The notes beneath the pieces were generated by a model that saw only the letters and a list, made by a program, of their open reading frames with translations, was not told where the DNA came from and did not search any database. From a virus (taxonomy: Duplodnaviria > Heunggongvirae > Uroviricota > Caudoviricetes): DNA of 64,000 nucleotides. Of this stretch, positions 21,335-22,680 are shown in pieces. The stretch is from IMG/VR virus record IMGVR_UViG_3300020576_002769, positions 17,985 to 81,984 of that record. One strand, given 5' to 3'. Each line of letters opens with the position of its first letter. Position 1 is the first letter of the stretch. The translations under genes were made by a program, and so were the position numbers.

Positions 21335-21766
21335 ATGAATGATAAACTAAAAAATATAATCATTAACTATCTACGTAAGAAGTATATGGGTTTGGACGTT
21401 AAACTATCTATTGAATATTCCAACTTAACTTCTTATTATTACATATTCGGAGTAAAGGATAATGATAGATGGCTCTCTTGGAAGGAAGTTGAAGAATACT
21501 CATACGTATTCGATATTCCTACCGTTCCGGTGTTGTTCCGGGGAGTTGTTAGTTCATATGAGGAACTAAAACAATTGGTAGAAGAACTCGTTAATCAACC
21601 ATCCGAATTAGGTGGTGAACGTGAAGGTGTTGTGGTTAGATTGGCCGGAACCTTTTATAATGATGAATTCTCTGATTGTGTTATGAAATGGGTAAGAAAG
21701 AATCACGTTAAAACTGATGAACATTGGACCCGAAATTGGAAAAAAGCAAATATTAAAAGATATTGA
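21335..21766 (+). CDS. Rnl2-family RNA-ligase-like C-terminal fragment (uncertain)
   Basis: YVFDIPTVPVLFRGVV...GGEREGVVVRLAGTF...KWVRKNHV resembles ligase motifs III, IV (EGvVvK) and V. No KxDG/KxHG adenylation motif is found. It starts right after the degenerate fourth repeat and overlaps pnk by 4 nt. Confidence 0.35.
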   Translation: MNDKLKNIIINYLRKKYMGLDVKLSIEYSNLTSYYYIFGVKDNDRWLSWKEVEEYSYVFDIPTVPVLFRGVVSSYEELKQLVEELVNQPSELGGEREGVVVRLAGTFYNDEFSDCVMKWVRKNHVKTDEHWTRNWKKANIKRY

Positions 21767-22680
21767 TTATGAAAAAAGAAAATTTAAAAATACTGATACT
21801 AATCGGAATCCCCGGGTCAGGTAAATCCACTTGGGCAAAAGATTATGTGAAGTATAACGACGATTGGGTCAGAGTAAATCGGGATGACTTCCGGGAAATG
21901 CTTAAAACCGCCCAAGTATGTGAAAACAAAGTTGAGAATATGATAACCAAGTTGGTAAGCGATACTATCAATGCCGCTCTTATGAGAAAACTAAACGTAA
22001 TCATAGACAATACTCACGTGAAAGTTAAATATATCAATAGTATCATCGAAGAGTTTAAATACTCAGCCGATATTGACTATCGTGTATTTGATGTTTCATT
22101 GGATAAAGCCATCGAAAGAGATTCTAACCGTGAAAAGAAAGTTGGTTCCGATGTTATTAAACGTATGTATGGTGATTATAAAATCCTTATGGATTCATTT
22201 AATTTCCAACCGGTAACCAAAGTTAAACATAGACCGGTTATCAAACCTAATTTTAGTACTAATCTACAAGATGCAGTTATCTTTAATATCGATGGAACAT
22301 TAGCTAATATGGGTAATCGTGGTCCGTTTGATTGGGATAAAGTTTATAAGGATGATGTTAATCATATTGTAGCAGAACACGTTAAATTCCATAAATCATT
22401 AGGTAGAGAAATCCTGATTGTTACCGGCCGTGATGCGGTTTGCAAACAACAAACCATCGATTGGTTGGAGTTATACGGAATCGAATTTGATGAAATATTT
22501 ACAAGACCGGAAAACGATTTTAGAAAAGACACCGTAATCAAAAAAGAAATATACGAAAACAACATCAAAGGAAAATATAACATCCTTTGTGTATATGACG
22601 ATAGATTACAAGTTCTTGATATGTGGTACGACCAAAAAATATTCACATTTAATGTGAATCAGGGTAATCACGAATTCTAA
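21763..22680 (+). CDS. pnk: T4-type polynucleotide 5'-kinase/3'-phosphatase
   Basis: N-terminal P-loop LILIGIPGSGKSTWAK. C-terminal HAD phosphatase AVIFNIDGTLANMGNRGPFD, close to the T4 PseT [20 protein letters not shown]. Confidence 0.9.
   Translation: MIMKKENLKILILIGIPGSGKSTWAKDYVKYNDDWVRVNRDDFREMLKTAQVCENKVENMITKLVSDTINAALMRKLNVIIDNTHVKVKYINSIIEEFKYSADIDYRVFDVSLDKAIERDSNREKKVGSDVIKRMYGDYKILMDSFNFQPVTKVKHRPVIKPNFSTNLQDAVIFNIDGTLANMGNRGPFDWDKVYKDDVNHIVAEHVKFHKSLGREILIVTGRDAVCKQQTIDWLELYGIEFDEIFTRPENDFRKDTVIKKEIYENNIKGKYNILCVYDDRLQVLDMWYDQKIFTFNVNQGNHEF

What the first reader, a model, noticed from the sequence alone, without database searches (positions are those of the whole stretch)
21335..22680. 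T4-like tRNA healing pair with a possibly disrupted ligase
21763-22680 is an unmistakable T4 PseT-type bifunctional kinase/phosphatase, and its HAD-motif region is nearly identical to T4. The ORF immediately upstream (21335-21766, overlapping by 4 nt) resembles only the C-terminal half of an Rnl2-family ligase nucleotidyltransferase domain (FDI..VPVLFRG..EGVVVR..KWVRK). No lysine-adenylation motif I is present. Where the 5' half would be expected, one finds the CRISPR-like repeats instead. Either this is a genuinely split or minimal ligase, or the array insertion truncated an rnl gene. The latter would be a rare example of an array colonising a phage gene.
Basis: inference. Interest (0 to 1): 0.6.

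Follow-up and report, generated by a model that had tools for sequence, protein, structure and literature searches.

The report
Deletion-truncated phage RNA ligase remnant
The short gene in front of the phage's RNA-end-repair enzyme is the dead back half of an RNA ligase, left by a recent 2.9-kb deletion and not by the neighbouring CRISPR-like array, and the repair enzyme has also lost a catalytic residue, so this is ordinary decay of an RNA-repair module.

Summary
The sequence observation holds. ORF 21335-21766 contains only the C-terminal 118 residues of a 215-aa RNA ligase, and 21769-22680 is a T4-type polynucleotide kinase-phosphatase (PNKP).

The proposed cause does not hold. A relative that is 97.7% identical (L024) carries X2, six small genes, the full ligase and PNKP in that order. 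The window lacks about 2.87 kb of this stretch. The deletion joins codon 25 of X2, a small gene of unknown function, in frame to ligase codon 98, at a short microhomology (window 21407-21409).

The array belongs to a separate cassette upstream, made of small gene X1 plus the array. A sister contig (L022) has the same array with X2 not fused to the ligase. Another relative (L034) has such a cassette directly upstream of an intact ligase.

The ligase N-terminal half, with the motif I lysine, is absent from all 64 kb. The top-scoring 120 of 881 homologues are almost all 212-218 aa.

The PNKP has Asn in place of the Asp nucleophile of the phosphatase motif (FNIDGT). The equivalent T4 mutant, D165N, is inactive. 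The same Asn allele occurs next to an intact ligase (L036) and next to a second, independent ligase deletion (L038). This suggests stepwise loss of the module.

The more unusual feature is the X1-array cassette, whose first repeat is also the last 12 codons of X1.

The parts
20825..20855 (+). Bacteroidota-type promoter (TTTG-N19-TATCTTTG) upstream of X1. It is probably the only promoter left for X1, the array, the fusion ORF and PNKP.
   Evidence: The motif occurs 21 times in the window against 4.0 +/- 2.0 in shuffles. The region is conserved in L023 and L024. The native promoter upstream of the 66-aa ORF, seen in L038, lies inside the deleted segment.
20875..21240 (+). X1, a small conserved phage gene of unknown function. 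The conserved domain is 20875-21153 (93 aa). The ORF then reads on through spacer 1 and repeat 2 to a chance stop in spacer 2.
21111..21331 (+). CRISPR-type mini-array. The 36-nt repeats are at 21111-21146, 21177-21212 and 21243-21278. The 30-nt spacers are at 21147-21176, 21213-21242 and 21279-21308. A truncated terminal repeat is at 21309-21331.
   Evidence: Sister contig L022 shares the two distal spacers and has three different X1-proximal spacers.
21335..21409 (+). X2-derived 5' end of the fusion ORF (25 codons, MNDKLKNIIINYLRKKYMGLDVKLS).
   Evidence: Identical to the start of X2 in L022 and 87% identical to X2 of L024. The X-family profile hits residues 2-59 at E 3.8e-8.
21407..21409 (+). 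Deletion junction: TCT, shared by X2 and the ligase within the patch TCTnnTGAATATnCC.
   Evidence: Three-way comparison of the window, X2 of L022/L024 and the ligase of L024.
21410..21766 (+). RNA ligase 3' remnant (codons 98-215 of a 215-aa ligase, with motifs IV EGVVVR and V KWVRK). Residues S97-Y215 are identical in protein sequence to L024; S97 comes from the shared TCT at 21407-21409.
21769..22680 (+). Polynucleotide 5'-kinase/3'-phosphatase (303 aa). The kinase P-loop GIPGSGKST and RVNRDDFR are intact.
22285..22287 (+). AAT codon: Asn173 replaces the Asp nucleophile of the DxDxT phosphatase motif (a G-to-A change relative to L024).
   Evidence: T4 D165N is inactive on 3'-P, 2'-P and 2',3'-cyclic-P ends (PMC3592404).
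22682..22715 (.). Bidirectional hairpin terminator after PNKP.

Best explanation
ORF 21335-21766 is a chimeric leftover. The ancestor had this order: promoter, X1 and array, X2, six small genes, a 215-aa stand-alone RNA ligase, then PNKP. A deletion of about 2.87 kb between two short similar stretches joined codon 25 of X2 in frame to codon 98 of the ligase.

The deletion removed the rest of X2, six small ORFs, the native promoter of the ligase-PNKP operon, and the ligase half that carries motifs I, Ia and III. The product therefore cannot form the lysyl-AMP intermediate and is not a ligase.

The neighbouring PNKP keeps an intact kinase domain, but Asn replaces the Asp that forms the phospho-enzyme intermediate. 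It should therefore be unable to remove 2',3'-cyclic or 3'-phosphates.

The Asn allele also occurs with an intact ligase and with a second, independent ligase deletion. The most economical reading is that the phosphatase was lost first, selection on the ligase then relaxed, and the ligase was deleted twice.

Shown: the deletion, its junction, its independence from the array, and the Asn substitution. Inferred: loss of enzymatic activity, the order of events, and tRNA repair as the ancestral role.
For: - L024 aligns at 97.7% identity with window 21407-23750 and carries X2, six ORFs, a full 215-aa ligase and PNKP. The window matches L024 6000-6084 (X2) and then jumps to 8951. The region between is absent from the whole window.
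- The junction sequence is resolved.
- Ligase residues 97-215 are identical to the window ORF.
- The exact 143-aa product is on four contigs, including independent JGI and Logan assemblies.
- L022 has the same array and X2 running through the whole X-family domain.
- L036 has an intact ligase next to Asn-PNKP. It differs from the window by 1 of 912 nt in PNKP and 2 of 360 nt in the ligase remnant.
- L038 has Asn-PNKP with L024 positions 8628-9298 deleted.
- Of the 14 full-length PNKPs listed for the 90%-identity cluster, 11 have Asp and 3 have Asn, and the Asn forms differ from one another by 1-2 aa.
- T4 D165N is inactive (PMC3592404).
- The top-scoring 120 of 881 ligase homologues are nearly all 212-218 aa, and none covers the first 24 residues of the window ORF.
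Against: - The remnant has no stop codons or frameshifts and differs from intact copies only by synonymous or single changes. Sequence decay is therefore not visible, although the deletion is too recent for this to be informative.
- The ORF keeps a start codon in the position typical for genes downstream of X-array cassettes, so it is probably still translated, and a new function cannot be excluded.
- Only 64 kb of a huge-phage genome was examined. Another ligase of a different family may exist elsewhere.
- The order of events rests on three Asn sequences, and recombination could confound it.
- Asn at the nucleophile position was not tested in this enzyme.
Confidence: 0.88

Rival explanations
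1. The CRISPR-like array, or the X1-array cassette, inserted into the ligase gene and truncated it.
For: The array lies 4 nt upstream of the truncated ORF. X-array cassettes do move between intergenic sites in near-identical phages, and in L034 one lies directly upstream of the ligase.
Against: - 75 nt of X2 coding sequence separate the array from the first ligase base. The junction is X2-ligase, not repeat-ligase.
- L022 has the same array and trailing spacers with X2 not fused to the ligase.
- In L034 the cassette leaves the ligase intact.
- The missing 2.87 kb includes six unrelated genes.
Confidence: 0.03
2. A genuinely split or minimal ligase: the C-terminal fragment works with an N-terminal fragment encoded elsewhere, or on its own.
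For: The ORF is open and in frame. It retains motifs IV and V and is probably expressed by read-through from the X1 promoter.
Against: - There is no N-terminal half anywhere in 64 kb.
- All close and distant homologues are single chains of 212-218 aa.
- The nearest relative has the normal gene.
- The first 25 residues come from an unrelated gene.
- Without the motif I lysine, no covalent nucleotidyltransferase chemistry is possible. This follows from the established mechanism of the ligase superfamily.
Confidence: 0.03
3. Assembly artefact: the junction is a chimeric join made by the assembler in a repeat-rich region.
For: The region contains repeats and paralogous X genes. One Logan contig ends inside repeat 3.
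Against: The identical fusion protein and junction occur on four contigs from different assemblers and samples. The junction lies 76 nt past the last repeat, in unique sequence.
Confidence: 0.02
4. The chimera and the Asn-PNKP are functional novelties. For example, a phosphatase-dead PNKP could act as a kinase-only enzyme or a 3'-phosphate end binder, with the X2-ligase fusion as a new accessory protein.
For: - The Asn allele persists in at least five datasets, including with an intact ligase.
- PNKP differences from L024 are mostly synonymous, 15 synonymous against 4 non-synonymous.
- In T4 Pnkp the D167N mutant, at the general acid-base Asp rather than the nucleophile, sequesters RNA 3'-phosphate in the active site (PMC3592404). 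No end-trapping by D165N was retrieved.
Against: There is no positive evidence of a new function. Two different deletions removing ligase sequence in the Asn background fit loss better than gain.
Confidence: 0.07

Closest known systems
Phage T4 Pnkp (PseT) with T4 RNA ligase: the healing-and-sealing pathway that repairs tRNA cut by host anticodon nucleases
   Same: Same two-domain PNKP: an N-terminal P-loop kinase and a C-terminal DxDxT phosphatase (1ltq 1e-35, 5uj0 1.5e-20). In relatives the PNKP gene is adjacent to an ATP-dependent RNA ligase gene.
   Different: The ligase partner is a 215-aa stand-alone nucleotidyltransferase domain, not Rnl1 and not two-domain Rnl2. In the window the ligase is truncated and the phosphatase nucleophile is Asn. 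tRNA as the substrate is inferred by analogy only.
Capnocytophaga gingivalis Pnkp1 of the Pnkp1-Rnl-Hen1 RNA repair system (PDB 4xrp)
   Same: This is the best solved-structure match of the PNKP (5e-54 over the full length). It comes from a Bacteroidota organism, consistent with the Bacteroidota-type promoters in the window.
T4 Rnl2, Naegleria gruberi Rnl (Rnl5) and archaeal Rnl3 nucleotidyltransferase domains
   Different: No sequence-level PDB match, even with a profile. It lacks the Rnl2 C-terminal domain and the Rnl5 N-terminal domain. The model confidence is only moderate (pLDDT 68.5, pTM 0.71).
Virus-borne CRISPR mini-arrays and compact arrays of huge phages
   Same: A short array with no cas gene nearby, identical repeats, unique 29-31-nt spacers, a degenerate terminal repeat and strain-to-strain spacer turnover at one end. 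Such arrays are described in PMC7162821 and PMC11656645.
   Different: The leader-proximal repeat is the 3' end of a conserved protein-coding gene. The cassette is multi-copy and sits at different sites in near-identical phages. No host array with the same repeat and no protospacer were found.
Bacteroidota type VI-B (Cas13b) and II-C arrays
   Same: 36-nt repeats with 30-nt spacers. The leader-distal end reads GTTGT (PMC8092290). The 3' end GGGTAACAACAAC fits the GGGTAnnnACAAC found in the Bergeyella zoohelcum and Flavobacterium columnare arrays.
   Different: The 5' end is GGTG rather than GTTG. The internal CCCTT/AAGGG hairpin of VI-B repeats is absent and the repeat is predicted to be unstructured.

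Membership tests
T4-type bifunctional polynucleotide kinase-phosphatase (Pnkp/PseT) | N-terminal P-loop kinase domain with GxxGxGKS/T and the RDD acceptor-site motif | tested here: met
   GIPGSGKST and RVNRDDFR are present and invariant among relatives. AAA_33 8e-18. Full-length alignment to 4xrp_A and 1ltq_A.
T4-type bifunctional polynucleotide kinase-phosphatase (Pnkp/PseT) | C-terminal HAD/DxDxT acylphosphatase domain with the first Asp as nucleophile | tested here: not met
   The domain is present (HAD_PNKP 1e-39), but the motif reads N-I-D-G-T. Relatives, T4 and Pnkp1 have D-x-D-G-T.
T4-type bifunctional polynucleotide kinase-phosphatase (Pnkp/PseT) | 5'-kinase and 3'-phosphatase activity on RNA or DNA ends | not testable with these tools
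   This needs an enzyme assay. T4 D165N is inactive as a phosphatase (PMC3592404).
ATP-dependent RNA ligase (covalent nucleotidyltransferase superfamily, Pfam PF09414) | Motif I KxDG with the lysine that becomes adenylylated | tested here: not met
   Absent from the 143-aa ORF and from all frames of the window. Orthologues have TEKLDGEN.
ATP-dependent RNA ligase (covalent nucleotidyltransferase superfamily, Pfam PF09414) | Motifs IV (EGxxxK/R) and V (xKxK/R) and homology over the C-terminal half of the domain | tested here: met
   EGVVVR and KWVRK are present. PF09414 positions 78-171 at E 7e-13. PHROG 34045 at 3.6e-25 and PHROG 24030 at 3.6e-19.
CRISPR array | Identical direct repeats separated by unique spacers of near-constant length, with a degenerate terminal repeat | tested here: met
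   Three exact 36-nt repeats, 30-nt spacers and a 23-nt terminal partial repeat. Across related loci there are 35 unique spacers of 29-33 nt.
CRISPR array | Polarised spacer gain at a leader-proximal end | tested here: met
   The window has S1-S2-S3 and L022 has Sa-Sb-Sc-S2-S3. The P0001 contig has a further spacer upstream of Sa.
CRISPR array | Associated cas genes, or a host array with the same repeat | tested here: not met
   No cas-like Pfam hit was on record for genes within about 6-8 kb of the five copies whose called genes were listed; most of those genes have no Pfam hit. Of the 22 window ORFs of 230 aa or more, the ten scanned also gave no cas hit. No exact repeat in 185,579 GTDB genomes. 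This does not exclude a diverged host repeat.
CRISPR array | Spacers matching foreign DNA (protospacers) | tested here: inconclusive
   22-mers from four spacers hit only the array itself in IMG/VR. Only exact matching was possible.
Type VI-B (Cas13b) direct repeat | 36-nt repeat of the form GTTG...CAAC with an internal short hairpin (CCCTT...AAGGG) and 30-nt spacers | tested here: inconclusive
   Length, spacer size and the 3' GGGTAACAACAAC fit. The 5' end is GGTG and the hairpin is absent. Identity to bacterial VI-B-type repeats is 20-25 of 36, of which 10 positions were fixed by the search pattern.

The most novel reading that the evidence does not exclude
The unusual feature next to the finding is the X1-array cassette (window 20875-21331). 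It is a CRISPR-type array whose leader is a protein-coding gene and whose first repeat is also the last 12 codons (VEEHYKLRVTTT) of that protein.

This segment forms the end of a helix and the final beta-strand of a confidently predicted fold. More than 230 family members from huge-phage contigs show the same arrangement. Several copies can occur per genome, sometimes in tandem, and each ends with a truncated repeat a few bases before the start codon of the next gene.

Spacers turn over at the gene-proximal end. The cassette occupies different intergenic sites in phages that are 97-98% identical.

If real, this would be an undescribed type of mobile, phage-borne guide-RNA cassette. It would presumably use the host's Bacteroidota class 2 adaptation and effector proteins, and it would couple a small protein to the array.
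Probability: 0.45. Interest if true: 0.75.

Novelty: new member of a known kind. Interest (0 to 1): 0.33.

Why it matters
For the finding itself the value is mainly corrective. The short ORF should not be annotated as a ligase, as a split ligase, or as evidence that arrays colonise phage genes.

There is also a small, clean natural example of how a two-enzyme RNA-repair pathway can decay. A phosphatase-dead PNKP allele circulates with an intact ligase, and two sublineages then lost the ligase through different microhomology deletions. This could be tested directly as a case of relaxed selection after the first hit.

The neighbouring X1-array cassette may matter more. It is a recurrent, apparently mobile unit in which a CRISPR-type repeat doubles as coding sequence. 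It raises the question of how phages build and move arrays without cas genes.

Tried and rejected
- Rfam at gathering threshold on the whole window, and at E<=10 on 20800-21420: no CRISPR-DR or other family.
- tRNA scan of the window: none.
- tblastn of full ligases against all frames of the window: only residues 97-212 match.
- Spacers against the window and all fetched loci: only chance short matches.
- Spacer 22-mers against IMG/VR: only the sister array L022.
- Exact degenerate repeat against GTDB genomes: nothing.
- X1 protein against GenBank phages by tblastn: no match.
- X2 against JGI metagenome contigs: nothing.
- X2 DNA against IMG/VR: only L022.
- Ligase sequence and ligase profile against PDB sequences: no hit.
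- The afdb50 fold library was unavailable.
- Literature search for the repeat sequence: no paper.
- I suspected that ORF 24366-24704 was an X paralogue. The X-family profile did not hit it.
- I considered that the repeats encode a repetitive protein tail. Rejected, because 10 of 35 unique spacers have lengths that are not multiples of three and about a quarter carry in-frame stops.
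Full report
**Source and setting**

The window is part of JGI metagenome contig 3300033069 Ga0364485_10109 (106 kb). Locus L003 is 100% identical to window 15335-27766. The only GenBank phage matches to the ligase region are two uncultured huge phages of 635 and 642 kb. Bacteroidota-type promoters (TTTG-N17-21-TAnnTTTG) occur 21 times, against 4.0 +/- 2.0 in shuffles. The element is therefore most likely a large phage of a Bacteroidota host.

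**The observation**

ORF 21335-21766 (143 aa) matches Pfam RNA_ligase PF09414 at E 7e-13, but only over profile positions 78-171 of 171. It matches PHROG 34045 over positions 97-209 of 219.

The downstream gene is a bifunctional polynucleotide kinase-phosphatase (PNKP):
- HAD_PNKP 1e-39 and AAA_33 8e-18.
- PHROG 505 'polynucleotide kinase' 1e-82.
- Best solved relative is Capnocytophaga gingivalis Pnkp1 (4xrp, 5e-54), followed by T4 Pnk (1ltq, 1e-35).

Its conserved start is ATG 21769, as in the JGI gene call and all orthologues. The TTG at 21763 that would give the 4-nt overlap is not conserved.

Three exact 36-nt repeats with exactly 30-nt spacers, plus a 23-nt partial repeat, occupy 21111-21331.

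**What intact relatives look like**

Full-length orthologues are 212-218 aa, with motif I TEKLDGEN near residue 39.
- They are present in the two GenBank huge phages.
- They are present in eleven IMG/VR contigs.
- They make up nearly all of the top-scoring 120 of 881 database homologues. None of these aligns with the first 24 residues of the window ORF.

In several relatives the ligase is followed by PNKP, so the pair is ancestral. Homology between all of these and the window always starts at ligase residue 97 (window 21407). A sensitive tblastn finds no trace of residues 1-96 in any frame of the 64 kb.

**How the truncation arose**

The decisive locus is L024 (ENA ERZ4214608, 49-kb contig). 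It is 97.7% identical to window 21407-23750. Its gene order is:
- a promoter region,
- two genes (135 and 249 aa),
- X2 (104 aa),
- six small ORFs (107, 144, 85, 152, 192 and 66 aa),
- the full 215-aa ligase,
- PNKP,
- the same downstream genes as the window.

Window 21334-21418 matches the start of X2 (L024 6000-6084). The match then jumps to L024 8951, and nothing in between occurs anywhere in the window.

At base level the window is identical to X2 of the sister contig L022 up to ...GTTAAACTATCT. From TCTATTGAATATTCC... onward it is identical to the ligase. The crossover lies in TCT (21407-21409), within a patch TCTnnTGAATATnCC that the two genes share. The join is in frame.

The ORF is therefore X2 codons 1-25 fused to ligase codons 98-215. 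An X-family profile independently recognises the N-terminus at E 3.8e-8. The exact fusion protein is found on four contigs, including an independent Logan assembly whose contig starts inside repeat 3 and has the same last spacer and junction. An assembly artefact is therefore unlikely.

**The array is not the cause**

The array belongs to a cassette made of a small gene, X1 (20875-21240), and the repeats.
- L022 (IMG/VR, 91-98% identical) has the same X1, the same two trailing spacers and the same truncated terminal repeat. This is followed by an X2 that runs through the whole X-family domain rather than into ligase sequence. By my own reading of the and sequences, the 3' end of that X2 appears to be joined to the tail of the 144-aa ORF by yet another deletion; this was not tested.
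- L023 and L024 lack X1 and the array but have X2.
- L034 has a different X-array cassette inserted exactly between the 66-aa ORF and the start codon of an intact 215-aa ligase.
- L038 has no array nearby. It lost the ligase through a different deletion (L024 8628-9298, with 14 nt of overlap at the junction).

Cassette insertion and ligase truncation are therefore separable events. The region is a hot spot for deletions.

**The PNKP is also compromised**

The phosphatase motif reads VIFNIDGT.
- L024 and more distant relatives have VIFDIDGT.
- T4 has IFDVDGT.
- Pnkp1 has ICDLDGT.

The change is a single G-to-A at 22285. In T4 Pnkp this Asp (D165) forms the covalent phospho-enzyme, and D165N is inert on 3'-phosphate, 2'-phosphate and 2',3'-cyclic phosphate ends (PMC3592404). 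The kinase motifs are intact.

Among the 14 full-length PNKPs listed for the 90%-identity cluster, 11 have Asp and 3 have Asn. The Asn forms differ from one another by 1-2 residues. The three Asn lineages are:
- the window, which carries the fusion;
- L038, in which the ligase is deleted;
- L036, which has an intact 215-aa ligase. It differs from the window by one nucleotide in 912 nt of PNKP and two in the 360-nt ligase remnant.

Parsimony suggests that Asn arose once, and that the ligase was then lost twice. This order is an inference. The remnant shows no further decay, which is expected given how recent the deletion is.

**Expression**

The native promoter of the 66-aa-ligase-PNKP operon, visible in L038, lies within the deleted segment. 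No Bacteroidota-type promoter lies between the array and PNKP. The fusion ORF and PNKP are therefore probably transcribed from the X1 promoter (20825-20855), through the array, to the hairpin terminator at 22682-22715. This is also an inference.

**The X1-array cassette (noticed, partly followed up)**

X1 has more than 230 homologues and no family assignment. In all of the sampled homologues, a conserved domain of about 93 aa ends in ...WVEEHYKLRVTTT. The ORF then reads on through copies of 'VEEHYK..VTTT plus 10 variable residues'. These are 36-nt repeats and 30-nt spacers read in frame.

Only the first repeat is coding. In 11 loci there are 35 unique spacers of 29 (8), 30 (25), 31 (1) and 33 (1) nt, and about a quarter carry in-frame stops.

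Spacer content differs between close relatives at the X1-proximal end and is shared at the distal end. The terminal repeat is always truncated, a few bases before the next gene's ATG. These are the hallmarks of a CRISPR array with its leader on the X1 side.

How the repeat compares with known Bacteroidota arrays:
- The leader-distal end reads GTTGT, the motif shared by Bacteroidota II-C and VI-B repeats (PMC8092290).
- The 3' end fits GGGTAnnnACAAC. With 66-nt periodicity, this pattern retrieves at least 120 loci, overwhelmingly from Bacteroidota, including the Bergeyella zoohelcum and Flavobacterium columnare arrays.
- The repeat lacks the internal hairpin of those repeats and is predicted to be unstructured.

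No cas-like Pfam hit was on record for the called genes listed around five copies. No identical host repeat and no protospacer were found. Compact, cas-less arrays in huge phages and viral mini-arrays are already known (PMC7162821, PMC11656645). An array whose first repeat is part of a conserved coding sequence, in a multi-copy and apparently mobile cassette, did not appear in the literature I could search.

**Verdict**

The sequence observation is largely right. The mechanistic reading is wrong. The short ORF is a recent deletion-fusion remnant of an RNA ligase within a decaying PNKP-ligase repair module. The array is a bystander that belongs to a separate cassette. The finding itself is ordinary, and the neighbouring cassette deserves its own follow-up.

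Noticed in passing
window 20875-21331 (also L018, L021, L022, L025-L034): X1-array cassette. The last 12 codons of a conserved small phage gene are the first 36-nt repeat of a CRISPR-type array. The arrangement recurs in more than 230 homologues, with polarised spacer turnover and a truncated terminal repeat just before the next gene's ATG. No cas-like Pfam hit was on record for the called genes listed around five copies, and no protospacer was found.
   Followed up: partly
L034 (OGWN01000453.1, reverse complement) 138-540: An X-array cassette with 2 spacers is inserted exactly between the 66-aa ORF and the ATG of an intact 215-aa ligase. In L024 and L036 that site is empty (TAAATT-ATG). A short duplicated stretch, ATAAAGAAT..ATTATGA, flanks the insert, so the cassette appears to be mobile.
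   Followed up: partly
L021 (GCA_050655815.1 contig, 316 kb) 7343-9384: Six X-family genes lie in tandem. At least three are followed by a one- or two-spacer array and a truncated repeat that overlaps the next X start codon.
   Followed up: no
L038 (JGI 3300010338) 1300-1313: A second, independent deletion removes almost the whole ligase (L024 8628-9298), with 14 nt of overlap at the junction. It also occurs in the Asn-PNKP background.
   Followed up: yes
window 47837-48151 (-), 26248-26619 (-), 9062-9391 (-): Further X-family paralogues without arrays (profile E 4e-10, 6e-7 and 1.6e-4). This is a multi-copy small-protein family of unknown function.
   Followed up: partly
window 20798-20807: A run of ten C in the intergenic region just upstream of the X1 promoter, in a genome of about 31% GC. 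It is not present at the corresponding place in L023 or L024.
   Followed up: no
window 20041-20523 (-), 23074-23559 (-), 18866-19792 (-), 22714-23070 (-): Unrelated-looking small ORFs share N-terminal peptides (MNLQENI[YH]RIK..M.. and ..I[KR]RILREE..). The same N-termini occur in the 152-aa and 192-aa ORFs deleted from the window (L024 7354-8390).
   Followed up: no
window 15772-15875: A 30-nt tandem repeat, 3.4 copies, 97% matches (TCTTAGAATATTTATCATTAATCTTTTTAG).
   Followed up: no
whole window: Bacteroidota-type promoter motifs TTTG-N17-21-TAnnTTTG are five-fold enriched (21 against 4.0 expected). Many share the extended form TTTGG..(A-rich)..GTATCTTTG.
   Followed up: partly
L009, L011, L017 4088-4924 and L008 3610-4452: In more distant relatives a truncated GluRS/GluQRS-like gene (278-280 aa, tRNA-synt_1c 1.4e-45) lies just upstream of the ligase-PNKP pair, with a conserved 69-aa ORF between ligase and PNKP.
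   Followed up: no
L034 1-75 (reverse complement of OGWN01000453.1): The public contig ends in what I recognise, from memory, as Illumina adapter/primer sequence (CAAGCAGAAGACGGCATACGAGAT...GTGCTCTTCCGATCT). This would be an artefact in the deposited record.
   Followed up: no
L022 10290-10374: Read by eye from the and sequences: X2 of the sister contig appears to be joined to the 3' end of the 144-aa ORF of L024 (..LLGPSYKWDDSLLKVLN). If so, this is another local deletion.
   Followed up: partly
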